From the IMG/VR virus record IMGVR_UViG_3300032167_007519: a DNA stretch of 64,000 nucleotides. One strand, given 5' to 3'. The notes beneath the pieces were generated by a model, which did no database searches, was not told where the DNA came from, and was given only the letters and a program-made list of their open reading frames with translations. Origin of the DNA: a virus (Duplodnaviria; Heunggongvirae; Uroviricota; Caudoviricetes). Below, one piece after another: positions 1-64,000 of this stretch. The first letter of the stretch is position 1. The number at the start of each line of letters is the position of its first letter. The position numbers were made by a program, and so were the translations under genes.

Positions 1-794
1 ATGGTGTCGGTTAAGGCAATTCCGTTCTTAGTACCATATTCTTTAATCCAAGCCTTCATAGCATAGTGGTTAGAATAAGCTGGATTGTGCTTTGGATTTC
101 CCTGACCTACGCACATAATCCATTCGTGTGCCATGGTGCCAACAGGGGTTAATCCAAATTTCTTAGCAAGATACACATTACTCGTTCCAATAAAAGTGGA
201 GCAAGCATACTGAGTTTCAGCTAAAGCCTTAACAACCATCTCCTGTGCTTCAGCAGACAACCTTCTACGCAAACCAAATTCACTGAAATTGGAAAGGCAA
301 TACTTACCACCTCGGCCAACCCAAGATAACTTTTCATCAAGTTTTTCCTTAGCACTATGTAACAACATAGTATAATCATGAGCCATACGGAAGTATACCT
401 CATTTACGATTGCTAACACTGGGACTTCATACATAGAAGTATTAAGCCATGTACCATAAGTCTCAATGCTAAGTCCCTTATCTCCTTCATTTGTAATAGT
501 GAAGTCTTCATAACGAGGATGCCATAATCTTAAAAAGTTTATATAAGAACGCTTCATCCACTTGAATCTCGCAAGGAACTCCAATTCATCTTCCTTGAAT
601 CTGAGCTCACAGTAAGCCTTAATCTGTTCTTTAATTTCCTCCACCATTTCGGCAGTAAAAAAGACATTTTCATTCCGGCATTTGAAGGTCCAACCAGTTT
701 CATATGTAGGAAACTGATGATAAATTGCCTGCCCCATACTAAATTTATAGAGGTCATTTTCTAATAAACTTGTGATAATTGGATGTAATTTCAT
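1..794 (-). CDS. pncB: Nicotinate phosphoribosyltransferase. The C-terminus is cut off by the window start; ATG at 792-794 gives MKLHPIITSLLENDLYKF...
   Basis: Hand translation of the minus strand aligns along its length with E. coli PncB, e.g. [20 protein letters not shown] vs SLLENDLYKFSMGQAIYHQF and [23 protein letters not shown] vs GTSNVYLAKKFGLTPVGTMAHEW. The ORF track shows only short alternative frames here. Confidence 0.85.
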   Translation of the reverse strand, partial: MKLHPIITSLLENDLYKFSMGQAIYHQFPTYETGWTFKCRNENVFFTAEMVEEIKEQIKAYCELRFKEDELEFLARFKWMKRSYINFLRLWHPRYEDFTITNEGDKGLSIETYGTWLNTSMYEVPVLAIVNEVYFRMAHDYTMLLHSAKEKLDEKLSWVGRGGKYCLSNFSEFGLRRRLSAEAQEMVVKALAETQYACSTFIGTSNVYLAKKFGLTPVGTMAHEWIMCVGQGNPKHNPAYSNHYAMKAWIKEYGTKNGIALTDT

Positions 795-836
795 AAGAAC
801 TCTCCTTTATAATTCATTTGTAAAATTTTGCTGTGT

Positions 837-1727
837 TTAAAAGATAAGAGAAGCTTTTGTATCCCATTTGCTATATAAATGACCATCCGGTCTTAAAATA
901 AGATATTTAACTTCTTCTTTATGTGCTTCCTGTGCCATGGAATCTTCATCAATCACTGTAGAAAAGCCTTCGAAATCGTATCTACAAGCACCATATTCTA
1001 AAGTATCTAAATATTTACCATGTTCTTTTACCTGTAATTTAAAATACTGGATAAAATCATGAGTCAGATTGGTAACATTATTTGCAATCCATTCTGCCTG
1101 AGGTGTACCATCTTCGGAAGTCCATAAAGCTCTGCAAGTAAGCTGGTCAGCGCCAAGTTTTCTACAAATGCCTATAATATCTGCTAAGGCATGTTCTTTA
1201 TCACGAAGAGTACAAACCATATGGTCATTCATATTGAGACAAATCCGAAGATTCATATTTCTTTTTTTAATATTCTGGCATAGTGGTAATAAGTATAAAT
1301 TGTAGTCCGGAGTCTTAATAAGGTCTTGGTTAGTTTTTGGATTGTCTAGACTGGCAACCGAAATAGCAATTGTAGTAACACCAATCGCTTTTAAGAAATC
1401 TAACATGTCTTCATCAATAAAAGCTCCAGATGTTTGGATTTCAATATTGAGAAATGGGTCCTGTAAAGACTGATTAACAACTCCTAATGTTCTTAAAAAT
1501 GCCTTATTTTGCTGAGGTTCATTATTTCCGGTAAGCATTAAAGTATTACAACCATTATCTCTGGCATACTGGAGTCTTTTCTTCATGTCTTTAATATAAC
1601 TCATAGTTGTAGAAAGCGGTGTAAATCTATCTTTATAATCTCCACCATGCATTTTGCTACAACAAAATTCACAATCATTGATACAACGACTTGCCGGAAC
1701 ACATATGCTTAAACTCTGGATATTCAT
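837..1727 (-). CDS. Radical SAM enzyme
   Basis: CINDCEFC is a CxxxCxxC cluster motif near the N-terminus and TLMLTGNNEP is GGEP-like. A promoter motif lies at 1777-1800 and RBS AGGAGG precedes the start. Confidence 0.7.
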   Translation of the reverse strand: MNIQSLSICVPASRCINDCEFCCSKMHGGDYKDRFTPLSTTMSYIKDMKKRLQYARDNGCNTLMLTGNNEPQQNKAFLRTLGVVNQSLQDPFLNIEIQTSGAFIDEDMLDFLKAIGVTTIAISVASLDNPKTNQDLIKTPDYNLYLLPLCQNIKKRNMNLRICLNMNDHMVCTLRDKEHALADIIGICRKLGADQLTCRALWTSEDGTPQAEWIANNVTNLTHDFIQYFKLQVKEHGKYLDTLEYGACRYDFEGFSTVIDEDSMAQEAHKEEVKYLILRPDGHLYSKWDTKASLIF

Positions 1728-1813: not shown

Positions 1814-1842
1814 TAGAAAAAGTCTCTGTTAAAACAGAGACT
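1814..1842 (-). terminator. Intrinsic terminator (minus strand) after gene 1882..3072
   Basis: Hairpin AGTCTCTGTT-AA-AACAGAGACT followed on the minus strand by UUUUUC. Confidence 0.6.
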
Positions 1843-1881: not shown

Positions 1882-3072
1882 TTACCAAAGATTTGCATAC
1901 GGAGTAACAGCTCTGATAGAATCTCTTACTTCTTCATCATATGGTAAAATAGTTCTAATATCATAGAAATCTTTACGTTTGGAAATAACCATGACTAATT
2001 CTGGAGTCTGATTGATATCTACATTGACATGTAGTGGCAGAACCCAATGTAATTCATCTTCTTTTGCTTTATAAATTGCTTTTGCATAAGAACCACCACA
2101 ACGATGAATACTAAGACCTGTATCTAATTCCTGAGAAATCTTTCTGGCTAATTCGAAATCAGAAATTTCTGCAATATTTTCCGGAAATCTTTCTCTTCTG
2201 GAATCAACACAATGACTTAAACTCTGATAGCTTGCATCATACAATTTTGGATTTGTGGAGAATGATGCAAAACGGTTATCTAATAAAGAAATTGGTTTCA
2301 ATTCTTTTGCTGCATCTTCCATAGTAAAACCATGTTCTGTGTAAGTTGTTTTACTTAAAATGATTTTGAACGGATAATAACAGTTATCTGTAACATGATA
2401 ACGATACATAACATGGAGATATCCGCCAAATCGATTTAATAAACCAATGTTAATTACTACCGATTTAATATTATTGACAACATAGTAATCTGTCATCTTG
2501 TTGTTGACATAGTACTTAATTTGATTGCTTAAGATTAACAAATATCTACGAAGACCGTTTGGAGATTCCCAATTATTTAATAATAACAACTCTTTTAACT
2601 GTTCGGCTATATCTCCAGCATCACGAACTTGTACAGATTCGTTCGAAGTATTTTCACTTACTGGCAACTCATCTAAACAGTTATCTTTATATTTTCTTAA
2701 AAAATTAAAACCATTTAACTGGAATTCTTCCTTATTTGCTTCGAAATCCGAGTTTCTTAAGATAAGATAACTGCCTTCTGCGACAAAATGACCTTCAAAT
2801 ACGCCAAAATGTTTCATCAAACATAAGAAAACAGGCTTTCCGTTGCTATTATTACACTTTAAATCAATCCACGCATATTTTGCGTCTTTTTTAGTTACTC
2901 GTTTGCACTTATTATCAAAATAATAAATATCTGTTTCGTTATTTTTTATTTTTTCTGCTAATTGAGCAAGGTCACACTCCATTCCAGTAAACTGGGAATA
3001 AAATTTTTCAAACTGTTCGACTCCGGTTAGTAATAAATCATCGCTTAATTGGAAATCAGATTCATATGCCAT
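1882..3072 (-). CDS. Hypothetical protein (396 aa)
   Basis: Long minus-strand ORF with an RBS. Promoter motif upstream at 3189-3212 and a terminator hairpin downstream at 1814-1842. Confidence 0.55.
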   Translation of the reverse strand: MAYESDFQLSDDLLLTGVEQFEKFYSQFTGMECDLAQLAEKIKNNETDIYYFDNKCKRVTKKDAKYAWIDLKCNNSNGKPVFLCLMKHFGVFEGHFVAEGSYLILRNSDFEANKEEFQLNGFNFLRKYKDNCLDELPVSENTSNESVQVRDAGDIAEQLKELLLLNNWESPNGLRRYLLILSNQIKYYVNNKMTDYYVVNNIKSVVINIGLLNRFGGYLHVMYRYHVTDNCYYPFKIILSKTTYTEHGFTMEDAAKELKPISLLDNRFASFSTNPKLYDASYQSLSHCVDSRRERFPENIAEISDFELARKISQELDTGLSIHRCGGSYAKAIYKAKEDELHWVLPLHVNVDINQTPELVMVISKRKDFYDIRTILPYDEEVRDSIRAVTPYANLW

Positions 3073-3188
3073 ATTTTATTTTTCCTTTCTTATCAACAAA
3101 CAACAATTTTTTTGACTTATAAAAAACTATCTTAATCCAATGGAATCCCCTCCTTTTTTTTGTTTAGAACAACAAATATAAGGTACGT

Positions 3189-3212
3189 CTATTAGCTATT
3201 TTTTGGTTTAAG
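3189..3212 (-). promoter_or_regulatory. Motif copy 2
   Basis: ctattagctattttttggtttaag + atggcgg. Confidence 0.6.
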
Positions 3213-3225
3213 ATGGCGGGAATCC

Positions 3226-4275
3226 TTAACGAACGAGGTGTATAGATTTATCAACGGTTTCTTTTTTACGACGAAGCTCTGCTTTTCCAACTTCTCGGAT
3301 TAAAATATATCTCATAATACGGTCATCACAATTTGCAATTTCTTTTAAACAAGGACGAATTGTTTGATATAACATACGCTTCATTTCTCTACAACCAAAT
3401 TCAGATTTGGCTAAAATCGCAAATTGAACACAGGCTTCCTTTGTAGATTTTAAAAGTATATCTTGTTCTTTTCCCAGTTCTTCTAAAGTTTTTAAATACA
3501 ATCCTTGAAAAGCTTTGTCATCAATGACATGAAAGTTATAAAGAGAATCAAAACGACCAACTAGTTCTACAGCTCCTCCAACAGATACGAGGTCTCTCAT
3601 AGACATATCATAAAATTCTAAGGATTGAGATGTTGTAGCAGAAAATCCAAGAGTTTTTTCTGGAGTCATTTTCTGTTTGCGAAAATCGGTAAATGCTCCC
3701 ATACCTATAAATAATGTTTTATTGGTATCTACCATTTTTGCTAAATTTGGCTTTGTGGATGATTGACATTCTTTACCTTCTAAAAGAGAAAGCATTTCGT
3801 GCTGAAGAGCGCTATGAAAATTCTCATTGCCACTACTGGATAATGGCAATAAAATCTTGTCAAATTCATCAAGAAAAACAATTGCATAGCCAAGAGAACC
3901 TTGTGCAGCAATACGCTCTGGAATAGAAGATAGTCCAGTTCCTACAAACCCAGCAGGTGAAAATCCGGAAATATCAACATGTAATACAGGAATTGGACAA
4001 TTATATTGTTTTAATATTTTTTTTACAGTACGATATAATTCTGTTTTTCCGGAAGCCGATGGTCCAGAAATCATAATGTTGTGTTTAATACATTTTCCAG
4101 AAAAACTTCCAGAAATATATTGATAAATATCATAAGCAATATCAGAGATTGCTTCATCTTGTCCATAAACAGAATTTTGAATATCCCAAACAAATTGTTC
4201 ATAAGAAATTGGGAAATCATAAGGTTCATTTTCATCAAAAAGGTCGTCATTAAAAAAGTCATGGATATATGTCAT
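3226..4275 (-). CDS. ClpX/HslU-like AAA+ ATPase (unfoldase-like). No N-terminal zinc-binding domain seen.
   Basis: VYGQDEAISDIAYDIY resembles the ClpX VIGQEQAKK..AVYNHY region. Walker A is ISGPSASGKTEL and Walker B is IVFLDEFDKI. SGFSPAGFVGTGLSSI resembles ClpX TEAGYVGEDVENI. Confidence 0.7.
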   Translation of the reverse strand: MTYIHDFFNDDLFDENEPYDFPISYEQFVWDIQNSVYGQDEAISDIAYDIYQYISGSFSGKCIKHNIMISGPSASGKTELYRTVKKILKQYNCPIPVLHVDISGFSPAGFVGTGLSSIPERIAAQGSLGYAIVFLDEFDKILLPLSSSGNENFHSALQHEMLSLLEGKECQSSTKPNLAKMVDTNKTLFIGMGAFTDFRKQKMTPEKTLGFSATTSQSLEFYDMSMRDLVSVGGAVELVGRFDSLYNFHVIDDKAFQGLYLKTLEELGKEQDILLKSTKEACVQFAILAKSEFGCREMKRMLYQTIRPCLKEIANCDDRIMRYILIREVGKAELRRKKETVDKSIHLVR

Positions 4276-12821: not shown

Positions 12822-13931
12822 TTATAAAGGCATTGTTGAAAAATTAGAAACAGAAGCTAAAGAAGCATTTTTATAAGAATTATCTTCTGTTACCTCTTTA
12901 ATAATTTTGATTTGTTCTGGAAATGAAATACTTTGATTTTCATCACTTAATTCAATTTCCATAATTGCTTTCTTTTTCCAGAAAGGATAGGTATCAATTT
13001 CAAAATATTGATTTTCATGAGTTAAACAATATCTCGTTTTTCTAATTGGTCTTTTTTCTGGGTCTGCGTCCATTAGTAGTTCTAAATATTCTTCTTTAGA
13101 AATTCTACGTTCTGTTTCAATCCGTTTTATATCAGAAATTTTTTTCTTTGTAGTTTGAGAATAGGTATAATGCCCGTTAATACCTCTCTGTCGAATGCGA
13201 GATTCTTCTCCTTCTGGAGCATTTAAATATGTTTGTATTATTTCTACTCGTTGACAATTTGGATTTTGTTCTAACCAGTCTAAATCAGGGTATTCAATCA
13301 AAAACTTACGTTCAATTTCCAATGGTTCTGGTTCTCCTAAAAAGGAGGAAATTTCAGCAATTGTTCTTCTCATTTTCTCAGAAAAATCTGTTGAGTTATC
13401 AATAACTCTTAAATGAGGATGTCCAGTCCATGCAGAAACTAATTTTGCATCAGCCTCAATAGCTTCTTCCGTGGTTTCTCTTCTTGCGGCATTATTTTCT
13501 AAGGTATAAAACTCTTCCGCACCTTTGGCAGCAGTCACTAAATGAAATACCGCATCATATTCATCACGAAGTTCTACTTCATTTTTATTAAGATTTTTTA
13601 AGACTTGCTTAAATTGTTCTTCTGTAACAAAAGCCTTTCCATCTAAAGCACCTCTATCACAAATAATAAGGACTTTATCACAATCCATTTTTTTAGCAGC
13701 TTCTTCAAAGATATGCTCTTTTTCTAACTGAAGACGCATAATATAGGTCTGAAAGTCTACAATATCTTGACAAGTAGTTCCGGAAATACCTCCTAGAATT
13801 AGCTCAGTTGCTGTTTCAGGAACAAATAAAACTCGATATCCTTTATTTTCAAATTCGGTTTGAACTAAACTCATTGAGGTTGATTTCCCGGCACATGGGC
13901 CACCTGTTAATACGATTTTTGATATTTTCAT
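12822..13931 (-). CDS. P-loop NTPase/kinase (AAA_28, NadR-kinase-like) fused to a C-terminal CYTH (triphosphate tunnel metalloenzyme) domain
   Basis: N-terminal Walker A LTGGPCAGKSTS. The C-terminal domain opens with EIERKF, the ExExK CYTH signature, followed by basic/acidic residues typical of CYTH. Confidence 0.6.
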   Translation of the reverse strand: MKISKIVLTGGPCAGKSTSMSLVQTEFENKGYRVLFVPETATELILGGISGTTCQDIVDFQTYIMRLQLEKEHIFEEAAKKMDCDKVLIICDRGALDGKAFVTEEQFKQVLKNLNKNEVELRDEYDAVFHLVTAAKGAEEFYTLENNAARRETTEEAIEADAKLVSAWTGHPHLRVIDNSTDFSEKMRRTIAEISSFLGEPEPLEIERKFLIEYPDLDWLEQNPNCQRVEIIQTYLNAPEGEESRIRQRGINGHYTYSQTTKKKISDIKRIETERRISKEEYLELLMDADPEKRPIRKTRYCLTHENQYFEIDTYPFWKKKAIMEIELSDENQSISFPEQIKIIKEVTEDNSYKNASLASVSNFSTMPL

Positions 13932-23097: not shown

Positions 23098-24402
23098 TTA
23101 TAATTGAAGATACCAAGGATTTTCTTTATCATCATCTTCATCATTTTCTTCGTTGTCTTCCTTCCATGGGAAATATTCAGCTCTTTCTTTGTTTTTCTGC
23201 CATTCTTCATAACGATGTAGCCAATCGGACATATTCGCTTCATCTGCTAATTTTCCATAGTCTTTGATATGTTTTTCTTCCAGCTCTTTACGAATCTGTT
23301 TCGATTCTTGAGCAGAAATATGAGCTGCTAAATAAGAGGAAACACGGATACCATGTTTCATTCCTTGACGAATCTGTTTCATTTTGTCAGCGGGTATGGA
23401 AGAACAAGCATATGTAGCAACATCAATTAAAACTCCGTCAAATGGAATTTCCATTTCTGTTGCCATATCTGCAATTTCTCTTACTTTTTGATTATGTTCT
23501 AATCCAAGATAAATTTGTTTCATTTGCTCTTCTGAAAATTCTAATCCATTATAGAGAGTAACATCGAATCCACGAGCAATTCCGTCAAAAATAATTTCCA
23601 TTTGCTCTGCAGAAAAATCAGGATGGTTATATAGCAGGACATTATAACCTTTTTCTAATCCGATTCGAATCCAAGTCATTTGTTCTACATCATAACAAGG
23701 TTTCGCATAGAGTAGAACATCTACGCCTCTTTCTAAACCAAAAATTATTTGACGCATCTCTTGATTATTAAATACCGGATTCGCAACAATAGAAATATCA
23801 AGACCTTTTTCTAAAGCAGACAATAATGTATGAATCTGTTTTGTATTAAAATCAGGATTTAATAACCACGAAATGTCTAATCCCTGAGCTAAAGCAGAGT
23901 GGAATAGTCTCATACTTTCTACCGGATAAATTGGGTTTGTATAAGCAGAAACATCAAATCCTGACAATTTGCTTGTAATTAACGCATTCATTTGTGCCGG
24001 AGTAAATTCAAAATTAGCAAACGGAGTTACGTCAATACCTAAACGAATACCTCTAACCAATTCCAGAAGTTGCTTATTATTAAGGCGAGAATCTAAAAGA
24101 GGGGTAATGTCTAAGCCTTCTTCTAGTGCTTCACGGAATAATTCCATTTTAGAAGAAGAAAATTGTGGATTTTCTATCAGAGAAACATCTACTCCATGTT
24201 CTTTTGCTAAATCTAACTGCTTTAATTGTTCTGCGTTATAAATAGTTTCTAATTGTTCTTTTCTAGTTTTTAATTGAAATTCAATTTCTTCTGCCAGAAT
24301 CTCTTTATTTAACTCATCTAAAGCAGGTAAATTATTTCTTACTAAAAAATCATTAAAAACTTCGATTATATTTGAGGTGTTGGAAAGTTGAGAATAAGTC
24401 AT
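23098..24402 (-). CDS. Tandem ~36-aa repeat protein, paralog 2, with about ten repeats
   Basis: Repeats include GLDITPLLDSRLNNKQLLELVRGIRL, GLDISWLLNPDFNTKQIHTLLSALEK and GVDVLLYAKPCYDVEQMTWIRIGLEK. Confidence 0.6.
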   Translation of the reverse strand: MTYSQLSNTSNIIEVFNDFLVRNNLPALDELNKEILAEEIEFQLKTRKEQLETIYNAEQLKQLDLAKEHGVDVSLIENPQFSSSKMELFREALEEGLDITPLLDSRLNNKQLLELVRGIRLGIDVTPFANFEFTPAQMNALITSKLSGFDVSAYTNPIYPVESMRLFHSALAQGLDISWLLNPDFNTKQIHTLLSALEKGLDISIVANPVFNNQEMRQIIFGLERGVDVLLYAKPCYDVEQMTWIRIGLEKGYNVLLYNHPDFSAEQMEIIFDGIARGFDVTLYNGLEFSEEQMKQIYLGLEHNQKVREIADMATEMEIPFDGVLIDVATYACSSIPADKMKQIRQGMKHGIRVSSYLAAHISAQESKQIRKELEEKHIKDYGKLADEANMSDWLHRYEEWQKNKERAEYFPWKEDNEENDEDDDKENPWYLQL

Positions 24403-28919: not shown

Positions 28920-29486
28920 CTATAAAGTCATTTTTTGGTTGCGTGAAGCTTCGTCAAATTCTGCAATCTTGTTGGCTAAATCATATAAGCTAGAATCTCT
29001 ATGATTATATAGAATTAAGTCAACATTTTCAGAAATTCCATCAAAATCAATTTCATCCTGTTGGATACGTCTATCAATTTCTTTTGGATTGTCTCCTCGT
29101 TTTGCTAAACGTTCTCTGGCAGTTAATTCATCCGAATCTAATAATACAGTAATTGCATGTTCCGGAAGCAGTTTTTGAATATCTCTAAACCCAGCAGGAG
29201 TTAAAATAATAATGTCATTTTCTTTCGCTTCTAAAATAGATTCCATAGAACATCCATATCTCCAAACGCCATGAACGGTATCGTAAGCTTTATGTTCTGC
29301 AAAAAATCCTTCGTTTACTTTTTTACAAAAATCATCTTCTGAGGTATAATGATATGTTTTTCCGGCAATTTCTCCCGGACGCATTGGTCTGGTAGTGTAA
29401 GTAGGGATTTTTTCATATCCCATAGTAAGTAAAATATTTTGGACCGTATCTTTTCCTCTTGCTGTTTTCCCAAGCAAAATAATCAT
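28920..29486 (-). CDS. Guanylate kinase-like protein
   Basis: TYTTRPMRPGEIAGKTYHYTSEDDF matches the GMP-kinase signature TTR.PR.GE.DG.DY.FV. The N-terminal P-loop is LLGKTARGKDT. Confidence 0.6.
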   Translation of the reverse strand: MIILLGKTARGKDTVQNILLTMGYEKIPTYTTRPMRPGEIAGKTYHYTSEDDFCKKVNEGFFAEHKAYDTVHGVWRYGCSMESILEAKENDIIILTPAGFRDIQKLLPEHAITVLLDSDELTARERLAKRGDNPKEIDRRIQQDEIDFDGISENVDLILYNHRDSSLYDLANKIAEFDEASRNQKMTL

Positions 29487-49461: not shown

Positions 49462-49540
49462 TTTTCAAGGTGCATTTTTTGTTTTTCTCATTCTTATTCG
49501 GAGTTTTTTAGGATGTGACATAATAAAAATGATAAAACAA

Positions 49541-49630
49541 CGACAATGGTAGGATTCGAACCTACGGACCTCTTTCGAGAGTCAACGGTTTTCAAGACCG
49601 CCGCAATAAACCAGACTCTGCCACATTGCC
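49541..49630 (-). tRNA. tRNA-Ser (anticodon TGA), class II with long variable arm
   Basis: Reverse complement folds as GGCAATG/CATTGTC acceptor, 3-bp D-stem, anticodon loop CTTGAAA, variable arm, T-arm GTAGG-TTCGAAT-CCTAC. Very similar to E. coli tRNA-Ser. Confidence 0.85.
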
Positions 49631-49727
49631 ACATATACTTTTCCTATAGCCTTTCTAAAAGGCTAAGAAATTTAACCCTTTAGAAAAAACTACAGGATGA
49701 GGAAGAATGATAAAGTTTTTATTCACA

Positions 49728-49751
49728 CTTATTAGCTACTAATTGGTTTAA
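49728..49751 (-). promoter_or_regulatory. Motif copy 14, upstream of tRNA-Ser
   Basis: cttattagctactaattggtttaat + ctttcgg. Confidence 0.55.
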
Positions 49752-49840
49752 TCTTTCGGTAATAAATGACATTTAGGCTTATTTTGCCAGATAATCAAAA
49801 CTTTTTTAGTTGCTTTAATAAACATTCTTTTTTTTAAGTT

Positions 49841-49885
49841 AAAAAAACTCAGAGACATAGGAATAAATATATTTTCATCTCTGAG
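49841..49885 (-). terminator. Hairpin with U7 tract (minus strand) between the tRNA-like elements and the tRNA-Ser promoter
   Basis: CTCAGAGA..TCTCTGAG 8-bp stem with a 22-nt loop, then UUUUUUU. Confidence 0.4.
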
Positions 49886-50002
49886 ACATGGAGGTTAGAA
49901 AACCTAAAAAATGTTTAGTTTTATAATAGAGCTTCTAATTCTTTTATTTCAGCTCTTAATTCTCTCACTTCTTTTAAAAGAAGTTTTTTTTGCTTTAAAG
50001 AT

Positions 50003-50116
50003 TACGGGAGAGAGGATTCGAACCTCTCATATAATGAATCCTGACCATATGATTATTTCTAATCACAGATTCCCATGGAGAATGAGTCCATGCACTTACC
50101 AACCGTGAACTCCCAT
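50003..50116 (-). ncRNA. tRNA-like RNA with CAT anticodon-like loop and a ~47-nt structured extra arm (GAAA-tetraloop hairpin)
   Basis: Acceptor ATGGGAG/CTCCCGT, D-arm CAC..GTG, anticodon stem ATGGA/TCCAT with loop CTCATTC, T-arm AGAGG-TTCGAAT-CCTCT. The extra arm is GAATC..TGATTA-GAAA-TAATCA..GATTC. Confidence 0.45.
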
Positions 50117-50189
50117 AACTAACTTTTTGGTCGAAAGAACAAGAAAATCAAAATAACTACCAACGCTTTTGGAAGGAAACGTTGAGAAC

Positions 50190-50245
50190 CCAAATGCTTC
50201 CTAAGGGAATCGAACCCTTTTTTATGCCAATTAGGAAGCAGATAG
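50190..50245 (-). ncRNA. tRNA minihelix-like element (acceptor stem plus T-arm only)
   Basis: GCTTCCT ... AAGGG-TTCGATT-CCCTT AGGAAGC: a 7-bp terminal stem directly flanking a T-arm. Confidence 0.35.
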
Positions 50246-50329
50246 ATAGGACCATTTTCGTAGCCCTATCTTTAGAAAGGAAGATAACATTTTGTAGAGA
50301 AAAGCAAATTTGAGAATAACCCTACAAAA

Positions 50330-50503
50330 GAGAGGTGGCGGATTTGAACCGCCAATTAGTTCCTATCAGATGTAACAAACTGTTTACCTAAGGAGAAAAA
50401 TTTATGTCTACCCTGCCCAAAGAGTATACATGATAAGTCAAATACACAACACACTGGAGAAAAATAGATAGGACTAATTACCGTTTTCGTTATAAAAACG
50501 AAA
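50330..50503 (-). ncRNA. Structured RNA candidate with a tRNA-like T-arm, a long internal helix and a terminal stem (Y-RNA-like?)
   Basis: 3' end GGCGG-TTCAAAT-CCGCC then ACCTCTC pairs with GAGAGGA at the 5' end. Internal 13-bp helix AATTAGTCCTATC/GATAGGAACTAATT. Hairpin CGTTTTTATAACGAAAACG. Confidence 0.3.
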
Positions 50504-50830
50504 TTCCTCTCAAATAGTAAAGATGAGGAATGAGAAGTTTAAAAATGGATGAAGAGACTCCTCACTCCTTACCTTTTACTTACTTCGATTGGCATATCGG
50601 ACCAGTTTCGAAGAGTGCTTGCATTGCCGAAGCCCACAAGCGATGAAACTCTTACGTTGACGATATTTTAATAAGAGAATCATCTCATCCAATCTAATAG
50701 ACAAATTGCTGTTTGTTTCCCTATTGCGGATTGGTGTGTGAGATGGAGGCCGCTTTGTACAGGAAACATTAGGGGGCTCTGTTATGGACTTATTGCATAT
50801 TGATTTATGACTAATTGCCATATCCCTAGT

Positions 50831-50956
50831 AGAGAAGGTCGGGCTCGAACCGACGACAACCAGCTTGGACTTAATTTTTTCCTTGCTGTTAGTTTCACAC
50901 GTACATATGAAACATTTTTATAAGGGCTGATGCTCTCCCATCTGAGCTACTTCTCT
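50831..50956 (-). ncRNA. tRNA-like gene with a ~53-nt insertion in the anticodon loop (intron-like, contains hairpin GTTTCA..TGAAAC)
   Basis: Acceptor AGAGAAG/CTTCTCT, canonical D-arm TAGCTCAGATGGGAGAGC, T-arm GTCGG-TTCGAGC-CCGAC. Anticodon stem TCAGC/GCTGG encloses 60 nt in place of 7. Confidence 0.5.
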
Positions 50957-51021
50957 ATTTTTTATTAGAACATAGTGAGGAAGAAGGCCTACCTATTGGT
51001 TAGATAGGCCTTTTGTTCCTA

Positions 51022-52497
51022 TTATGCTACTACCTTTTCGTAACGCTCACTGTTGACTACTGCCATCATGAGCTCGTAAGGTGTGGTTCCAATGTTCTCC
51101 ATTACCTGCTTAAAGATGTTTGGACTATATCCACTTACCATAGATACGCCTCTTGCACTCTTAGCAGCATGGAAGGTTGGATTCTTTGCGTTGACATTCC
51201 AGAATACTACCTGTGGAAGATGATATCCTGCTTCGTTATAACGCTTTTTCATAACATCGTAAAATGTCATGTTCTGCTCACGGTCAACACCCTCTACACA
51301 GTTAATCTGCATATCAGATACAATGACAATAGCATCTGGCATTTCTTCTGGAGTTACCTTACCCTTAATACAGGTCTTAAGTAATAACTCAAAAGCCGCT
51401 TCAAGGTCGGTAGAACCATCCCAATCAGCTTCCTTTACGATATTAAGATTATCCTTTAATGTAGCACCGTTAAGCTCTACATATTCCGGATGAGTGCTGA
51501 AAGTCATGAATACATCCTTTAAGTCACCCTTGTTTCTCTGAGCAAAATAAATTGCTAGAGCTGTAGCGACTTCAATTGGATACATACCTCCAGACTTATC
51601 CCAGCTCATAGAACCGGAAGTGTCACACATGACTAAAGCATTTCCCTTACATACATCCGGAAGAGACTTCCACATGGTTTCAAGGTCTCTGGTATAGTTG
51701 GTATTTACCTGATGAATAATGTCACATGGAGTAACAGTACCCATGTTCATCTTCTCTTCACCAGTTTCTACCTTCTGATTGAATTCTGTCCAACGAGCTT
51801 CATCATGCTTTACAAAAGCCTTACGGTTCTTAAGTAAAAACTTAGATGCACACTTGCTGTACTCAATCTCGTCCCACTTACCAGCACACATCTTTGCTTC
51901 CGGTAAATCTAAATACTTACGAAGAGAACGGAGCTTCTTTTTATAGTCAGACATGGTCTTGAAGGAATAACCTAACTTCTTGGCAGTTAACTTACCAAGC
52001 TTCTTTGTTTCTTCAGAACCAGAGTCCGGTGTAGCAATCCACTTAGCCAATAAAGAAATACTATTTCCCTTTGCTAAGTTCTCTAAGTCTAACTCAAACT
52101 GAGCCTTCATAAACTGCCACATTGCAGATTCTGCAGGAGTTCCAATCAAACAATATAAGTCCTTGGCACGACCAAATTCTAATACTGCCCAAAGGTTCTT
52201 CTCTACAGATGCTGGATTGATTTCAGCTAAATGACGGAACATATCCATAAAGGTATCTCTTTCTCCATATCCGCCACGAATGTCTCGGGTATAGAATAAT
52301 AACTTTACGGCAATATCCTTGTTTTCCTGAAAAGCTCTGCTAAATAACAGGTTCTTTTCTTCTGTAGTAGCCTGTCTCATTGCTCCGGCTCTACCAAATA
52401 AGTCTAGACAGGTGGAATCTGTGGTCTTTAAGGTATCACAACCATTCCATGTTTCTGTCCACTTTGCTTCGTTGTGAATAGCTTCACGTAAACTCAT
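51022..52497 (-). CDS. DUF2828-family protein: N-terminal TROVE/Ro60-like region plus C-terminal vWA domain
   Basis: vWA MIDAS VMCDTSGSMSW...DGSTD. Domain order and size (491 aa) match the phage DUF2828 family. The TROVE relationship is from memory, not a search. Confidence 0.55.
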   Translation of the reverse strand: MSLREAIHNEAKWTETWNGCDTLKTTDSTCLDLFGRAGAMRQATTEEKNLLFSRAFQENKDIAVKLLFYTRDIRGGYGERDTFMDMFRHLAEINPASVEKNLWAVLEFGRAKDLYCLIGTPAESAMWQFMKAQFELDLENLAKGNSISLLAKWIATPDSGSEETKKLGKLTAKKLGYSFKTMSDYKKKLRSLRKYLDLPEAKMCAGKWDEIEYSKCASKFLLKNRKAFVKHDEARWTEFNQKVETGEEKMNMGTVTPCDIIHQVNTNYTRDLETMWKSLPDVCKGNALVMCDTSGSMSWDKSGGMYPIEVATALAIYFAQRNKGDLKDVFMTFSTHPEYVELNGATLKDNLNIVKEADWDGSTDLEAAFELLLKTCIKGKVTPEEMPDAIVIVSDMQINCVEGVDREQNMTFYDVMKKRYNEAGYHLPQVVFWNVNAKNPTFHAAKSARGVSMVSGYSPNIFKQVMENIGTTPYELMMAVVNSERYEKVVA

Positions 52498-52597
52498 AAT
52501 AAAATCCTCCTTACATGATTCGTAAAATAATTTTGTAAAATTTGCGATTTACAGTTCTGTTTTAAGATTTGCTGTAAGAATCACAAGATGGATTAGT

Positions 52598-52620
52598 CCC
52601 TACATAAGTAGGGGTTTTTT
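52598..52620 (+). terminator. Plus-strand terminator-like hairpin upstream of the TROVE-like gene
   Basis: CCCTAC-ATAA-GTAGGG GTTTTTT. Confidence 0.4.
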
Positions 52621-53014
52621 ATTAACTTATTGCTTGTTCTGTTATAGAACAAATGCTGAATTATAGTGATGAGCTATCGGCATTGAAACTAACTTTAAAT
52701 TTGTAGTATTCTAGTCATCGTCATGACCTGCCGTCTATGTCAAATTACTTTCTAAAGCTTATGCACACTTAGCTAAAGATTTTATTTTATAGAAATTCAG
52801 CAAAATATTTGTTTGTTCTGTTCAGAGGAGCCTCTTCCTTCCTTACTCCCTAGCTGCACCTCTCCGGGATAGGATACCTTTTCGCAGACTCCTCTGCCAG
52901 TGCAACATGCTTGATGTGCAGTCAAAGACTATTGTTGCAATATGTACTGGTTTCTAACCAATAGCCCACCACTCTGTTCCTAAATAATTTGTTTACAGAG
53001 AACCATAAAAATTA

Positions 53015-53242
53015 TTATAAAACTTCAAAAATATCAAAAAGTATTTCTGAAGATATAATACTGTTTGGCGCAATTTCTTTTCTAGTTCCTAAATTACGTA
53101 GTTTGTTTAGATATCCTGAACATTGCTGGCAACAAAAGAAAGTATTCTTACCTTTTCTTTTTTTTCTATTATATTCGGATATTGATTTCTCAAACTTTTT
53201 GTTACATTCTGGATTAAAACAAGTTAATGTTATTGTATTCAT
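53015..53242 (-). CDS. Small zinc-ribbon protein (75 aa)
   Basis: CFNPEC...CCQQCSGY. The only credible ORF in this part of the ncRNA-rich region. Confidence 0.4.
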   Translation of the reverse strand: MNTITLTCFNPECNKKFEKSISEYNRKKRKGKNTFFCCQQCSGYLNKLRNLGTRKEIAPNSIISSEILFDIFEVL

Positions 53243-53677
53243 AAATACCTTAATTCAAAATAATATAGGATGAGATAATGAGTGGACCTGAGGAGAGTCG
53301 AACTCCTGTCTGGAACACCGCCATAAAACTTTCTACACGTTTATCTTATTTTTGGTACCAGCCGATGTTTAAATAAGCAAACCCATCGACATCGCACAGC
53401 CAGATTTTATTTTGATATGGCTTTCTGGGTGAACTTTTACCGTATCTCAACCGCTATTTTTGAACCCTCCGGAGTATAGCGGTGTTATCCGGAGAGCTTA
53501 TCCCTTACCATTTCAGATAAGGGTGTAGTCTACTTACCTATTAGGCAGCCTGAGCTACTGGTCTGTATGCGTTAGCATTTATTCTTTGGTGTCGGATTTA
53601 AGAGGTGTCCACCATCCTCTACGTGCTTATTTTCCTTTGTATGCCCCATCGAAACCGGGACAGGCCCAAATGTTTTT

Positions 53678-54145
53678 TTATTTGCGTTTTACGCGCGATT
53701 TTTTTAAATATTGACCCGTAAGTTTTCCATTCTTTACGAGTACTTTATGTATGTCACTTTCTACAATTTTACGCTCTTCGTCTAACAAATGAAAAGAATA
53801 TATGCCACACCTGTTTTTTAAATATTGATAAACTTCTTCTTGGGACCAGCAAAGTTTACGTAAAAAATCAATATTTTCGGGTGCTCGTTGTTGAGCTTCT
53901 CTTGATGCGAGGCCTATATTATTATTATATCTTGGTTTAAGCTTTAACCTAATTGCTATATCAAGGTCATGTATTTTTTCATTATCTGTGTTTATATATG
54001 AACCAAAAGCAACCATTTCGTCTACAAAACACGTAAACTCCGGATGTGATATTTCTTCATTAAGCTGCGAGATTCTTTCCAATAGTTCATTCAATTTTTT
54101 TTCTACTGTTTTTCTTTTGTATAACTTAGATTTACTCTCTGCCAT
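53678..54145 (-). CDS. Minimal nucleotidyltransferase (Pol-beta superfamily)
   Basis: AFGSYINTDNEKIHDLDIAI fits the GS-x(9-13)-DhD nucleotidyltransferase motif. Confidence 0.55.
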   Translation of the reverse strand: MAESKSKLYKRKTVEKKLNELLERISQLNEEISHPEFTCFVDEMVAFGSYINTDNEKIHDLDIAIRLKLKPRYNNNIGLASREAQQRAPENIDFLRKLCWSQEEVYQYLKNRCGIYSFHLLDEERKIVESDIHKVLVKNGKLTGQYLKKSRVKRK

Positions 54146-55214
54146 TGTAATTTCCTTTTTTTATGTTTTGTAAAACGTGAATTTAGATTAAAGTAGGGCT
54201 ATTTATTGTCATCTAGGTTGCCACCCTAAAATGTTTCTTACTCTCGGTCTTTCGTTCATATCTTTGATGCCCATCGGTTTCCTCTCAGATACACACATTT
54301 CAAACCTCATTGTGGATTCCTTATTTTCCGTAAGTTTTTTAGCGATACCGAACTTACAACACAAATACCAGTCACTAACGCTCTTTTAATTACCCTTTTG
54401 GGATAATTACCGTCTTTTCTTCGACGGACCTCGAATGGTTTATGCAAGAACCAATAAGCCTCTGTGTTTTGACATATCACAGAAGAAATATTCTCCTTTC
54501 GGATAGGTGGCTATAGGGGAATCGAACCCCATCATTGATATATTTAGCTCTCCACTTTTACACTACCGTCGTGTGGTCAGACTCGAACTGATTCCGGTGG
54601 TAAATATATCCCCGCTGGCAACCATCACTTCATAAGCAATTTTTAGGAATTACTATCAGTACAAGACTGTCAAACATCTGTCGCTGAACGAGCTCTTTTT
54701 TCAGAAATCTAAGCAGGTGGAATTTCCCCACAATGCATACTTAAATGATGTTCTTTACGTGGCCAGTTAGCCATATTTTGTTTTTTTACATAAAAATAAA
54801 ATCCTTAACTTACATGAAACGCTTTTTTTTTGAAGATTTTTCATAAAATTTTTCTTTTTCAAGTAGCAGAATTGCTGTATGTTTTACATTAAGAATTTTT
54901 TGACAATAGCTCAAATTTGGCTTTGTACATGTACGCTGCCAATAAAAAACTCTATCGGTTTTTGTTCGGTTGTTATCTTTATACAGGAAACTTTTTTTCT
55001 TCAACCCATTTGAATATGTAGTAGATTTGCTGTATGTTTCCCTAAAGATTGTTAGTTTACTTTTTACATGATGCTTTTTTGTTTGATTGCAAGAAGCAGG
55101 ACGCCTCTAATTGAATAATATGTTTTAGAATAGTTAATTCAAATTTTGCATTTTAGTTTTGCTGTAAGCATCACAAGTAACTATGTTAAATTATATTGGC
55201 TTTGACAGCCAAAG

Positions 55215-55286
55215 AGCACGTAACGAGAATCGAACTCGCATCTTCTGCTTGGAAGGCAGACATCTTAACCATTGGACCATACATGC
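55215..55286 (-). tRNA. tRNA-Gly (anticodon TCC)
   Basis: Acceptor GCATGTA/TACGTGC, anticodon stem TCTGC/GCAGA with loop CTTCCAA, T-arm GCGAG-TTCGATT-CTCGT. Confidence 0.85.
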
Positions 55287-62925: not shown

Positions 62926-63253
62926 GACATACTCCTTTCTTTATTCCTTTGTACTCAAAGATAACGCAAAAATATGGATTAAAATCTAATGGCCCTATGG
63001 TAGTACTTGCAGAAATAATGTCTACTAATTCCATTCTGTCGTTATAACAATAGAATTCCATGGTTTTGTCTGGTAATAATGGTACGTCGATTTGTTTGTA
63101 CGTTTGAAGCTCCCATGCGAAATGGTCAGCTTCGTATTCTAATGCATTCTGCATTATAAATTCTGTTCGGCTTTGTTTCATTTGTAATGGAGTAATAATA
63201 CATAATAGTAAAATTACAACAATTAGAAAAAAGGATTCGATTTTGGTCGACAT
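62915..63253 (-). CDS. Membrane-anchored protein (112 aa)
   Basis: N-terminal TM helix. Confidence 0.5.
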   Translation of the reverse strand: MSTKIESFFLIVVILLLCIITPLQMKQSRTEFIMQNALEYEADHFAWELQTYKQIDVPLLPDKTMEFYCYNDRMELVDIISASTTIGPLDFNPYFCVIFEYKGIKKGVCLEQ

Positions 63254-63488
63254 AAATTAGAAACCTCCTGAAGTTAATTGCTGGAAGGTTGCCATCATAA
63301 GATGCATAACACTGATACTTTTTAATAAAAAGATTAGTCCTAGCCCAAATAAAGCAAAGTCAAATAGAAAATGAAATAAATCTTCAATATAATCGACCAT
63401 GTAAATATTCCCTCCTTGTGTAGTTCTTTTCTTTAAGGAGATAGGAGGGGTACCCCCTCCTATACCTTTTTAGAAAAACTTTTCTAAA

Positions 63489-64000
63489 CTACTTTTGTGT
63501 AATAGTTACAAATGCTAATGCATTGTTAGAGGTGTAGTGACACTTAACAGCATATGTAGAAATTGGATTGATATAAGTTTTATCAGTCTTAATTCTGTAG
63601 TTTGCAGAAGTTGGAGTTGCAGATGCCGCAGCGCCTGTAAGCTGATATTCTGTAGCAGCTAAGTCGTATGGGTTTCCAGACAAACTGAACATTTTATCTG
63701 GGTCTGTTTCGTCCTCTTTCCATGTTGTTGGTCCCGTCTGGGTATATTCTGCAACAACACTACCACCATTGGTATATACTAATACATTTACATTGGCAGT
63801 AGAATTAGTTAAACTTTCTACCATGGAAATTACTGCACTACCTTGAATATCTTCTCCATCGTAGGAAGTTAAATCAATAGCGTTGATATTTACACCTTCT
63901 ACTGCGTTTAACACGCCATCAATGTGTTTTACTGTTACATCTTTACCACGATTAAAATAGAAAACCGTTAATGTGATAATTACTGCGAGTAACAGAAAGC
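63489..64000 (-). CDS. Membrane-anchored beta-rich protein. The N-terminus lies beyond the window end.
   Basis: The frame continues past 63914 to 64000 (..LLLAVIITLTVFYFNRGKDVTVKHIDG..). The Ser/Thr-rich sequence is reminiscent of pilin or pseudopilin-like proteins. Confidence 0.45.
   Translation of the reverse strand, partial: FLLLAVIITLTVFYFNRGKDVTVKHIDGVLNAVEGVNINAIDLTSYDGEDIQGSAVISMVESLTNSTANVNVLVYTNGGSVVAEYTQTGPTTWKEDETDPDKMFSLSGNPYDLAATEYQLTGAAASATPTSANYRIKTDKTYINPISTYAVKCHYTSNNALAFVTITQK

What the first reader, a model, noticed from the sequence alone, without database searches (positions are those of the whole stretch)
1..794. Phage-borne nicotinate phosphoribosyltransferase plus other nucleotide-metabolism genes: possible NAD+ reconstitution/anti-depletion function
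A clear PncB homolog, each with its own promoter motif, sits in a cluster with a radical SAM enzyme and a ClpX-like ATPase. Elsewhere there is a P-loop kinase (AAA_28, the fold of the NadR ribosylnicotinamide kinase domain) fused to a CYTH domain (12822-13931) and a guanylate-kinase-like gene. NAD+ salvage genes in phages are established counter-measures to NAD+-depleting defences such as Thoeris, DSR and CBASS effectors. PncB-type salvage is less commonly reported there than NadV/Nampt. Whether the kinase-CYTH protein is NAD-related is speculative.
Basis: partly seen in the sequence, partly recalled or inferred. Interest (0 to 1): 0.55.

Follow-up and report, generated by a model that had tools for sequence, protein, structure and literature searches.

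The report
NAD salvage genes on mobile element
The window opens inside an intact nicotinate phosphoribosyltransferase gene which, with a nicotinamidase gene just outside the window, gives a large mobile element of rumen Clostridia the first two steps for turning nicotinamide back into NAD+. That could hedge against NAD+-depleting immunity but is unproven, and the element looks more like a megaplasmid than a phage.

Summary
Window 1-794 (minus strand) encodes the N-terminal 264 of 402 residues of a genuine PncB. The missing part is the C-terminal third, not the upstream part. It is intact on an identical 117-kb metagenome contig, and the full protein passes NCBI's curated PncB cut-offs. A nicotinamidase (PncA) with all catalytic and metal-binding residues lies 0.8 kb further on, outside the window. 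Together they make nicotinamide -> nicotinate -> NaMN. No NadD, NadE or NadR was found in the 82 kb I could read, so completion to NAD+ would rely on the host. At least 160 IMG/VR phage contigs carry a 71-74% identical PncB. In the 80 fetched, it usually sits in a full PncA-DUF5662-PncB-NadD-NadE operon. Lachnospiraceae chromosomes carry pncA-pncB natively. The phage label is not supported. There is no capsid, portal, terminase or replication gene in 82 kb. A VirD4-like coupling protein and a Tad-pilus module adjoin the window; the Tad module matches 48 plasmids and no phage record. The kinase-CYTH protein is a copy of a common Lachnospiraceae gene and shows no specific NadR likeness. Promoter motifs are not above chance. 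Preiss-Handler clusters in gut jumbo phages were already reported in silico in 2024. This is a reduced two-gene member of a known kind, and the anti-defence role is inference.

The parts
1..794 (-). pncB, codons 1-264 of 402 (nicotinate phosphoribosyltransferase). Includes the start codon and the GTMAHEW motif with His223. The remaining 138 codons lie beyond window position 1.
   Evidence: The full gene is L001:10934-12142, 100% identical over the overlap, and scores 490.8 bits against the 379 cut-off of NF003704. Best solved structure is 1YIR, E 1e-95.
795..836 (-). 42-nt spacer between the radical SAM stop codon and the pncB start. Contains the Shine-Dalgarno AAGGAG (807-802), 7 nt before the ATG. 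No promoter-like site.
   Evidence: Read directly from the sequence; promoter scan.
837..1727 (-). Radical SAM protein of 296 aa (CINDCEFC cluster motif), probably co-transcribed with pncB. Function unknown, and no conserved link to PncB.
   Evidence: Pfam Radical_SAM 2.5e-10; no PDB relative; no homologue in 160 PncB loci.
1821..1842 (-). Terminator-like hairpin upstream of the radical SAM gene. With a second hairpin after the AAA gene (L001 15357-15386, outside the window), it brackets a putative unit: rSAM-PncB-p116-p115-PncA-SAH-AAA.
   Evidence: L001 9886-9907; window coordinate = 11728 minus L001 coordinate. This is a consensus match only.
1882..4275 (-). DUF3825 protein (1882-3072) and ClpX-like AAA_2 ATPase (3226-4275).
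   Evidence: no co-occurrence with PncB elsewhere.
12822..13931 (-). P-loop kinase (AAA_28) fused to a CYTH/triphosphate-tunnel domain (EIERKF motif at residues 205-210). It is a copy, without the HTH domain, of an abundant Lachnospiraceae chromosomal family. An NAD link is not supported.
28920..29486 (-).
   Evidence: Pfam Guanylate_kin; phrog_1815 at 1.4e-35.
49540..58054 (-). tRNA array (9 tRNAs) and a tmRNA (53280-53667). Context for the identity of the element.
   Evidence: tmRNA 132.8 bits against a gathering score of 47.
59111..64000 (-). Downstream end of a block that continues beyond the window into a Tad-pilus-like module (SAF, ParA/MinD-like, TadA ATPase, membrane proteins) and a VirD4-like coupling protein. 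This is the plasmid-type signature of the element.
   Evidence: L008 is 99.96% identical over this stretch.

Best explanation
The window begins inside an intact pncB gene. It belongs to a co-directional block on a mobile element of at least 117 kb and 34% G+C. The host is probably a rumen or gut Lachnospiraceae-type Clostridium. The block reads: radical SAM, PncB, 116-aa membrane protein, 115-aa basic protein, PncA nicotinamidase, SpoT/Mesh1-type alarmone hydrolase, AAA ATPase.

PncA deamidates nicotinamide to nicotinate. PncB, using PRPP and ATP through phospho-His223, converts nicotinate to nicotinate mononucleotide. These are the two entry steps of the deamidating (Preiss-Handler) salvage route. 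The last two steps, NadD and NadE, are not encoded in the 82 kb I could read and would be supplied by the host.

The most likely effect is a higher flux from free nicotinamide back to NAD+ while the element resides or replicates in the cell. Nicotinamide is what the canonical (SIR2/TIR-type) and RES-type NADase defences release. A higher return flux would blunt NAD+-depleting defences and also serve the element's general NAD+ demand.

Shown: gene identities, intactness, catalytic residues, the pairing of PncA with PncB, and the pattern in related loci. Inferred: the enzyme activities, reliance on host NadD/NadE, and the physiological role. The carrier is more likely a plasmid-like element than a phage.
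For: - The full PncB passes both curated cut-offs: NF003704 at 490.8 against 379, and TIGR01514 at 422 against 269.6. It aligns end to end with solved PncB structures, and GTMAHEW is conserved.
- The gene is intact and invariant in the contigs examined from five further samples. The one apparent split is a run of N.
- For PncA, the best solved relative is the P. horikoshii nicotinamidase. The Asp9/Lys93/Cys134 triad and the Asp50/His52/His69 metal site all align.
- PncA homologues lie next to PncB in 62 of 80 IMG/VR loci and 49 of 80 Clostridia genomes.
- In the viral loci the set is usually complete: PncA, NadD and NadE together in 57 of 80. Those loci sit among phage replication genes. This shows that mobile elements of this host group are selected to carry this route.
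- pncB G+C is 37.8%, close to the element's 33.9% and far from the 45% of bacterial homologues. It is therefore a long-resident gene.
- Phage NAD+ reconstitution from nicotinamide is an established counter-defence (NARP2, doi 10.1101/2024.02.11.579819; NARP3, PMC13464706).
Against: - There is no experiment.
- The element lacks NadD and NadE in all sequence I could see, so it does not encode a self-sufficient pathway.
- Likely hosts already carry pncA-pncB, so the gain is dosage or regulation only.
- About 37 kb of the contig was not retrievable.
- No NADase-related, ADP-ribose-processing or known anti-defence gene is nearby.
- If the carrier is a plasmid, a host-benefit vitamin-salvage role is at least as natural. 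Selenomonas ruminantium plasmid pSRC1 carries NUDIX-PncA-PncB-NadE among housekeeping genes.
- PncA fails the E. coli-type nicotinamidase equivalog cut-off: 30 bits against 174.
Confidence: 0.5

Rival explanations
1. Host-benefit metabolic cargo. The element is a megaplasmid, and pncA/pncB are ordinary niacin-salvage genes. They raise the host's capacity to use nicotinamide or nicotinate in the rumen and have no role in conflict with defence systems.
For: - The element has plasmid-type modules.
- pncA-pncB is a native chromosomal and chromid operon in Clostridia and in Selenomonas pSRC1.
- No defence or anti-defence gene lies next to the pair.
- NARP-like genes in bacteria are often housekeeping (PMC11724313).
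Against: - Likely hosts already have the operon.
- The element's other cargo is not metabolic. It is mostly ORFans, tRNAs, a tmRNA, an alarmone hydrolase and a guanylate kinase, which looks more like takeover or self-maintenance functions.
- pncB is rare on plasmids: 85 of 72,556 records, mostly chromids.
- The gene order differs from the host operon, with two unrelated small genes inserted.
Confidence: 0.3
2. The carrier is a large phage, and PncB is part of a phage NAD+ reconstitution pathway in the NARP sense: a phage-encoded route that rebuilds NAD+ during infection.
For: - The element has phage-like traits: tRNA array and tmRNA, YopX, and HNH and RuvC-like PHROG hits with phrog_850 and phrog_2376.
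- G+C is about 10 points below that of host loci, like the IMG/VR phages.
- Genuine phages of the same host group carry the homologous cluster (PMC11662467).
Against: - No terminase, portal, capsid, tail, polymerase or primase appears in 82 kb.
- The contig is absent from IMG/VR, and no relatives of its ORFans are found there.
- The Tad-like module matches 48 plasmids and 0 phage records.
- The VirD4-like protein matches 3553 plasmids against 34 phage records.
- No NadD or NadE is present, so the pathway is not complete on the element.
Confidence: 0.15
3. Passenger genes. pncB and pncA were captured from a host and persist without selected function on the element.
For: Several neighbours are also host-derived copies: the kinase-CYTH protein at about 70% identity to Lachnospiraceae, and a DUF5052 protein at 60-68%.
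Against: - Both reading frames are intact, with all catalytic residues.
- There are 0 and 1 (synonymous) differences across samples, while a neighbour carries 8.
- Composition has ameliorated to that of the element.
- The genes have a strong ribosome-binding site and tight spacing.
Confidence: 0.05

Closest known systems
Chromosomal or chromid pncA-pncB(-nadE) salvage operon of Clostridia and rumen Firmicutes (for example Butyrivibrio hungatei, Roseburia hominis, Selenomonas ruminantium pSRC1)
   Same: The same two enzymes. PncB is 66-74% identical and PncA about 45-55% identical. The genes are close together on one strand.
   Different: - Here the order is PncB...PncA, with two unrelated small genes between them.
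- No NadE and no NUDIX (NrtR-like) regulator is present.
- G+C is about 8 points lower.
- The carrier is a mobile element full of ORFans.
Preiss-Handler gene clusters of gut jumbo and large phages (PMC11662467, computational). Seen here as IMG/VR operons PncA-DUF5662-PncB-NadD-NadE, and in GenBank MT835470
   Same: Mobile-element-borne PncB of the same clade (71-74% identity) paired with PncA. The host group is presumably the same.
   Different: - Those loci encode the whole route to NAD+, often with DUF5662, and lie among phage replication and nucleotide-metabolism genes.
- This element has only the two entry enzymes, no DUF5662, and no phage hallmark genes.
- Its PncB is a separate lineage, equidistant from the viral and bacterial sequences.
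NARP2 (Nampt + Nmnat), NARP1 (Adps + Namat) and NARP3 (PnuC + NadR) phage NAD+ reconstitution pathways
   Same: Like NARP2, it would start from nicotinamide plus PRPP and be indifferent to the fate of the ADP-ribose moiety (doi 10.1101/2024.02.11.579819; doi 10.64898/2026.01.28.702374).
   Different: - The route is deamidating, through nicotinate, NaMN and NaAD, and needs four enzymes. Two of them are not on the element.
- PncB is not Nampt or Namat: its best curated family is PncB.
- No Adps, Nmnat, PnuC or NadR is present.
- No experimental evidence exists, and the carrier may not be a phage.
Kinase + triphosphate-tunnel tandem proteins (Arabidopsis TTM1, PDB 7Z67) and the inorganic triphosphatase NE1496 (PDB 2FBL/3TYP), for the AAA_28-CYTH protein
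   Same: A P-loop kinase domain followed by a CYTH/TTM domain with the ExExK motif. The C-terminal domain is 30% identical to NE1496.
   Different: - The kinase domain belongs to the AAA_28 family, not the uridine-kinase type.
- Bacterial relatives usually add an N-terminal XRE HTH domain.
- The substrate is unknown.
- NadR's ribosylnicotinamide kinase domain is only a distant fold match, at rank 31.

Membership tests
PncB / nicotinate phosphoribosyltransferase (TIGR01514, NF003704) | NAPRTase_N plus NAPRTase catalytic domain, with a full-length score above the curated cut-off | tested here: met
   The full gene from the identical contig scores 490.8 against 379 and 422 against 269.6. The window fragment alone scores 281, as expected for two thirds of the protein.
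PncB / nicotinate phosphoribosyltransferase (TIGR01514, NF003704) | Conserved histidine of the GT(M/Q)AHE motif. This is the phosphohistidine that couples ATP hydrolysis: His219 in Salmonella and His232 in yeast (residue numbers from my own knowledge). | tested here: met
   GTMAHEW at residues 219-225 with His223, aligned to the same motif in 1YIR and 3OS4.
PncB / nicotinate phosphoribosyltransferase (TIGR01514, NF003704) | Nicotinate-specific, ATP-stimulated phosphoribosyl transfer | not testable with these tools
   Requires an enzyme assay.
Nicotinamidase PncA (isochorismatase-like cysteine hydrolases) | Asp-Lys-Cys catalytic triad on an isochorismatase fold | tested here: met
   Pfam Isochorismatase 1e-24. 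Asp9, Lys93 and Cys134 align with Asp10, Lys94 and Cys133 of P. horikoshii PncA, 1ILW.
Nicotinamidase PncA (isochorismatase-like cysteine hydrolases) | Metal site Asp-x-His ... His, which distinguishes nicotinamidases within the superfamily (from my own knowledge) | tested here: met
   Asp50 and His52 (MDTH) and His69 (PVPHC) align with Asp52, His54 and His71 of 1ILW.
Nicotinamidase PncA (isochorismatase-like cysteine hydrolases) | Score above the curated equivalog cut-off (NF008623, E. coli type) | tested here: not met
   30.3 bits against 174, N-terminal 59 residues only. That model represents the longer enterobacterial form. The claim therefore rests on residues, the best PDB hit and the linkage to pncB.
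Nicotinamidase PncA (isochorismatase-like cysteine hydrolases) | Genomic linkage with pncB | tested here: met
   The gene lies 0.8 kb downstream of pncB here. Homologues are adjacent to pncB in 62 of 80 viral and 49 of 80 bacterial loci.
Phage NAD+ reconstitution pathway (NARP sense) | Encoded by a phage | tested here: inconclusive
   No virion, packaging or replication gene appears in 82 kb (Pfam lists). Plasmid-type VirD4 and Tad modules are present. Some phage-like genes are present too. About 37 kb is unseen.
Phage NAD+ reconstitution pathway (NARP sense) | The element itself encodes all steps from NADase products to NAD+ | tested here: not met
   No NadD, NadE, NadR or Nmnat homologue is found in the window plus flanks (Pfam lists). 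The unseen 37 kb could change this.
Phage NAD+ reconstitution pathway (NARP sense) | Restores NAD+ and rescues the element from NADase defence | not testable with these tools
   Needs infection or conjugation assays with SIR2, TIR or RES systems.
NadR-type ribosylnicotinamide kinase (for the AAA_28-CYTH protein) | Specific similarity to the NadR RNK domain beyond the generic P-loop kinase fold | tested here: not met
   No NadR hit by sequence at E<=1. Foldseek puts thymidylate and deoxycytidine kinases first and NadR 6GZO at rank 31. tblastn with a phage NadR finds nothing in the window.
NadR-type ribosylnicotinamide kinase (for the AAA_28-CYTH protein) | Association with NMNAT, PnuC or other NAD genes | tested here: not met
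   The gene is 12 kb from pncB. No kinase or CYTH homologue lies near PncB in 160 loci. The bacterial contexts examined show an ECF S-component or unrelated genes.
CYTH / triphosphate tunnel metalloenzyme | ExExK motif at the start of the tunnel domain, and the fold | tested here: met
   EIERKF at residues 205-210 aligns with NE1496. Foldseek gives E 6e-10 to 2FBL/3TYP.

The most novel reading that the evidence does not exclude
The deamidating Preiss-Handler route is a fourth, so far untested, NAD+ reconstitution strategy of mobile elements in gut and rumen Clostridia. Large phages carry it whole (PncA-DUF5662-PncB-NadD-NadE). This element carries a minimal PncB+PncA version. If the carrier is a Tad/VirD4-type megaplasmid, it would be a first case of a plasmid using NAD+ salvage against NAD+-depleting anti-plasmid immunity, such as SIR2- or TIR-linked short Argonautes (PMC9097488; doi 10.1101/2021.12.14.472599).
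Probability: 0.15. Interest if true: 0.7.

Novelty: new member of a known kind. Interest (0 to 1): 0.35.

Why it matters
The experimentally shown NAD+ counter-defence routes (NARP1, 2 and 3) all come from phages of aerobic model hosts, and none uses nicotinate. This locus, and above all the 57 of 80 related IMG/VR loci with the full four-enzyme set, give a concrete and testable candidate for a deamidating route in anaerobic gut Firmicutes. The route depends only on nicotinamide and PRPP, so it should be insensitive to how the ADP-ribose half of NAD+ is modified. The two-gene version here asks whether the entry steps alone are rate-limiting. It also warns that a tRNA- and ORFan-rich 'phage-like' window can belong to a plasmid-type element. 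By itself, however, the finding is two canonical enzymes on a mobile element, a pattern already reported in silico.

Tried and rejected
1. Extending the 117-kb contig beyond L001. The metagenome scan with the last gene found only 60-66% relatives, so the contig is not in that collection. The large protein search did not return the exact protein. About 37 kb therefore stays unread.
2. Looking for relatives of the element in IMG/VR with an ORFan and with the kinase-CYTH protein: none found.
3. The 'split PncB' in contig L005 is a run of N, not a frameshift.
4. Promoter motifs are not above the shuffled expectation.
5. NadD, NadE, NadR or DUF5662 in the window: none found.
6. A radical SAM or ClpX-like link to PncB: no co-occurrence in 160 loci. 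The radical SAM protein has no PDB relative.
7. HD_4 as a counterpart of the phage DUF5662: no similarity, and no PDB relative for DUF5662. The phage phosphatase that extends NARP1 is a Macro domain, not an HD domain (doi 10.64898/2026.01.28.702374).
8. A defence island around PncB: PADLOC finds nothing apart from a DUF262 protein 7 kb away.
9. GenBank 'phages' MT835470 (also 117 kb) and MT835474 as relatives of the element: each shares only one or two genes with it.
10. A CYTH-PncB association suggested by MT835470: not seen in 160 loci.
11. Placing PncB by distance clustering: it is equidistant from the viral and bacterial sequences, so its origin is unresolved.

Full report
**What is at 1-794.** The minus strand from 794 to 1 is a single open frame of 264 codons that starts at ATG 794-792. 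It is preceded by AAGGAG at 807-802, seven bases upstream (sequence).
- It matches Pfam NAPRTase_N (1e-27) and the first 93 positions of NAPRTase (3.5e-21).
- It matches NCBIfam PRK05321 at 1.3e-83 over profile positions 5-257 of 398.
- The window therefore holds the N-terminal two thirds of a PncB. The missing piece is the C-terminus, not the 'upstream part'.

**The rest of the gene.** The adjacent radical SAM protein is encoded by the identical sequence on 23 public contigs.
- The longest is JGI 3300029305 Ga0307249_10003745 (117,296 bp). It is 100% identical to the window over all 11,727 shared bases and is evidently its source.
- On it, PncB is 402 aa. It scores 490.8 bits against NF003704 (cut-off 379) and 422 against TIGR01514 (cut-off 269.6).
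- It aligns end to end with solved PncB structures; the best is 1YIR at 1e-95. The GTMAHEW motif is conserved, with His223.
- The copies examined from five further samples differ at no position in pncB. One apparent split gene is a run of N.

A 183-aa isochorismatase-family protein lies 0.8 kb downstream of pncB, after genes for a 116-aa membrane protein and a 115-aa basic protein.
- Its best solved relative is the Pyrococcus horikoshii nicotinamidase (1ILW, 1e-14).
- The catalytic triad Asp9/Lys93/Cys134 and the metal ligands Asp50/His52/His69 all align.
- It fails the enterobacterial nicotinamidase equivalog cut-off, 30 bits against 174. The assignment therefore rests on residues, the best structural relative and gene linkage.
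- The linkage is strong. PncA homologues lie beside PncB in 62 of 80 IMG/VR loci and 49 of 80 Clostridia genomes.
- PncA plus PncB convert nicotinamide to nicotinate mononucleotide, the entry half of the Preiss-Handler route.

**What is missing.** tblastn with phage NadD, NadE, NadR and DUF5662 found nothing in the window or its two flanks. The precomputed Pfam lists for nearly every gene show no CTP_transf_like, NAD_synthase, Nudix, Macro or PRPP-synthetase domain. In the 82 kb I could read, the element depends on host NadD and NadE.

**Relatives.** At least 160 IMG/VR contigs carry a PncB relative; the 80 best, which I fetched, are 70-74% identical.
- Among those 80 loci the modal arrangement is PncA-DUF5662-PncB-NadD-NadE. 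Counts are NadE 76, PncA 62, NadD 60, DUF5662 51, and PncA+NadD+NadE together 57.
- Four of these loci, scanned with PHROGs, lie among primase/helicase, NrdD, polynucleotide kinase and RNA ligase genes, so they are real large phages.
- GenBank MT835470 is another example.
- PncB is just as similar (69-74%) to chromosomal PncB of Lachnospiraceae and other rumen and gut Clostridia. There pncA sits directly upstream, nadE sometimes follows, and DUF5662 is never present.
- The window's PncB is a lineage of its own, equidistant from both groups.
- Its G+C is 37.8%, against 33.9% for the element, 45% for bacterial homologues and 35% for viral ones. It is not a recent capture.
- Only 13 of 50,697 GenBank phage records match the window's PncB fragment, and 85 of 72,556 plasmids match the full-length protein. 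The best plasmid match is Selenomonas ruminantium pSRC1, with NUDIX-PncA-PncB-NadE.

**Is the carrier a phage?**

*For a phage:*
- nine tRNAs and a strong tmRNA;
- YopX, and HNH and RuvC-like PHROG hits;
- the phage-typical DUF2828 and AAA ATPase proteins;
- near-total co-orientation of small genes;
- low G+C.

*Against a phage:*
- A PHROG scan of all 114 ORFs in 82 kb gives no terminase, portal, capsid or tail, and the Pfam lists show no polymerase or primase.
- The contig and relatives of its ORFans are absent from IMG/VR.
- Contig L008 is 99.96% identical over 4.9 kb and extends the element 8.3 kb past position 64000. It carries a VirD4-like coupling protein of the CD1115 family (220 bits), then a SAF protein, a MinD/ParA-like protein and a TadA-like ATPase.
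- The coupling protein has homologues in 3553 plasmids against 34 'phage' records, 28 of which are unannotated faecal contigs.
- The Tad-like block is syntenic with 48 large Firmicutes plasmids, including Clostridium and Butyrivibrio, and matches no phage record.
- Two repeat-rich ORFans have two dozen matches in a Finegoldia magna plasmid.

I put a plasmid-like element at about 0.6 and a phage or phage-plasmid at about 0.35. About 37 kb of the contig could not be retrieved.

**The other genes in the finding.**
- The radical SAM (CINDCEFC) and ClpX-like proteins are as described, but they never accompany PncB elsewhere.
- Promoter-like sites are no more frequent than in shuffles, and none precedes pncB. 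Two terminator-like hairpins bracket rSAM-PncB-p116-p115-PncA-SAH-AAA.
- The AAA_28-CYTH protein is confirmed. It has more than 8000 relatives at about 70% identity, mostly with an extra XRE HTH domain. One that carries a source name, and whose context I examined, is from a Lachnospiraceae genome.
- Its C-terminal domain is a triphosphate-tunnel enzyme like NE1496, with the ExExK motif.
- An AlphaFold model (pLDDT 79.6) matches the Arabidopsis TTM1 kinase+TTM tandem. For the kinase half it matches thymidylate and deoxycytidine kinases ahead of NadR, which ranks 31.
- No kinase or CYTH homologue lies near PncB in 160 loci. An NAD role is unsupported, though not excluded.
- The guanylate kinase is real.

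**Mechanism and literature.** NADase defences of the SIR2, TIR and RES types release nicotinamide (doi 10.1101/2024.02.11.579819; doi 10.64898/2026.01.28.702374).
- A PncA/PncB boost would return nicotinamide to NaMN using PRPP and ATP, whatever happens to the ADP-ribose half. In this it resembles NARP2.
- NARP1, 2 and 3 are the experimentally shown routes (PMC13464706), and none uses nicotinate.
- Preiss-Handler clusters (pncB-nadD-nadE, with pncA) in gut jumbo phages were reported computationally (PMC11662467).
- NAD+-depleting short Argonaute systems act on plasmids (PMC9097488; doi 10.1101/2021.12.14.472599). A plasmid could therefore profit too, but nothing here tests that.

**Verdict.**
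- The phage label and the wider 'cluster' are not supported.
- The anti-depletion role is a reasonable inference at about even odds, against ordinary salvage cargo.
- Novelty is modest: a reduced two-gene member of an already described kind.

Noticed in passing
window 53280-53667 (-), and tRNAs between 49540 and 58054: The element carries its own tmRNA (Rfam 132.8 bits; tag peptide ANAYRPVAQAA) and nine tRNAs. One 127-nt tRNA match at 50830-50956 was not called by ARAGORN and may contain an intron.
   Followed up: partly
L001 13550-14203 (1.8-2.5 kb beyond window position 1) and window 28920-29486: A SpoT/Mesh1-type small alarmone hydrolase (HDVVED motif; PDB hits to Rel hydrolase domains, MESH1 and a (p)ppApp hydrolase) lies next to PncA. 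A guanylate kinase lies elsewhere in the window. Both would oppose (p)ppGpp-mediated GTP limitation in Firmicutes, and the hydrolase could counter toxic alarmone synthetases.
   Followed up: partly
L036 9433-9999, L009 9463-9984 and 49 other IMG/VR loci: DUF5662 (HDLSKF and HHKGRNKHH motifs) sits between PncA and PncB in 51 of 80 viral loci and in 0 of 80 bacterial loci. It is a phage-specific addition of unknown function to the Preiss-Handler operon, with no PDB relative.
   Followed up: partly
L001 12585-12932 (between PncB and PncA, outside the window): The 115-aa basic protein carries 8 substitutions (6 non-synonymous) between samples. PncB has none and PncA has one synonymous change, so this is a local hot spot of variation.
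   Followed up: no
window 39038-40498 and 23098-24402: Two large ORFans are built of about 35-residue repeats (NPxF/Y..QM..I..GL..G.D). tblastn finds 23-24 matching places in the Finegoldia magna plasmids NC_010371 and NZ_CP085956.
   Followed up: no
L178 5481-7317 (Lachnospiraceae chromosome): The chromosomal HTH-AAA_28-CYTH gene overlaps the end of an ECF-transporter S-component gene (ECF-ribofla_trS). This hints that the family acts on an imported vitamin or nucleoside. Only one genomic context of this kind was examined.
   Followed up: no
L001 14230-15348 and window 51022-52497: The AAA ATPase (phrog_2376) and the DUF2828 'RNA-binding' protein (phrog_850) are adjacent in many phages (Aeromonas LAh_8, Acinetobacter ME3) but about 50 kb apart on this element.
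   Followed up: no
window about 63769-63986 and L008 7636-7853: A 218-nt segment is repeated at 90% identity. It reflects two tandem paralogous genes with pilin-like hydrophobic N-termini, just downstream of the Tad-like module.
   Followed up: no
MT835470.1 17048-27388 (loci L183-L185): A 117-kb human-gut phage contig has PncA-like, PncB, NadE-like and NMNAT-like genes in a row, and a stand-alone CYTH protein 5 kb upstream. It is otherwise unrelated to this element.
   Followed up: partly
L120 (MAG labelled Odoribacter, CAKVCR010000001.1): Its PncB is 98-99% identical to that of a group of IMG/VR phage contigs (L012, L025 and others). It is probably a phage contig binned into a bacterial MAG.
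   Followed up: no
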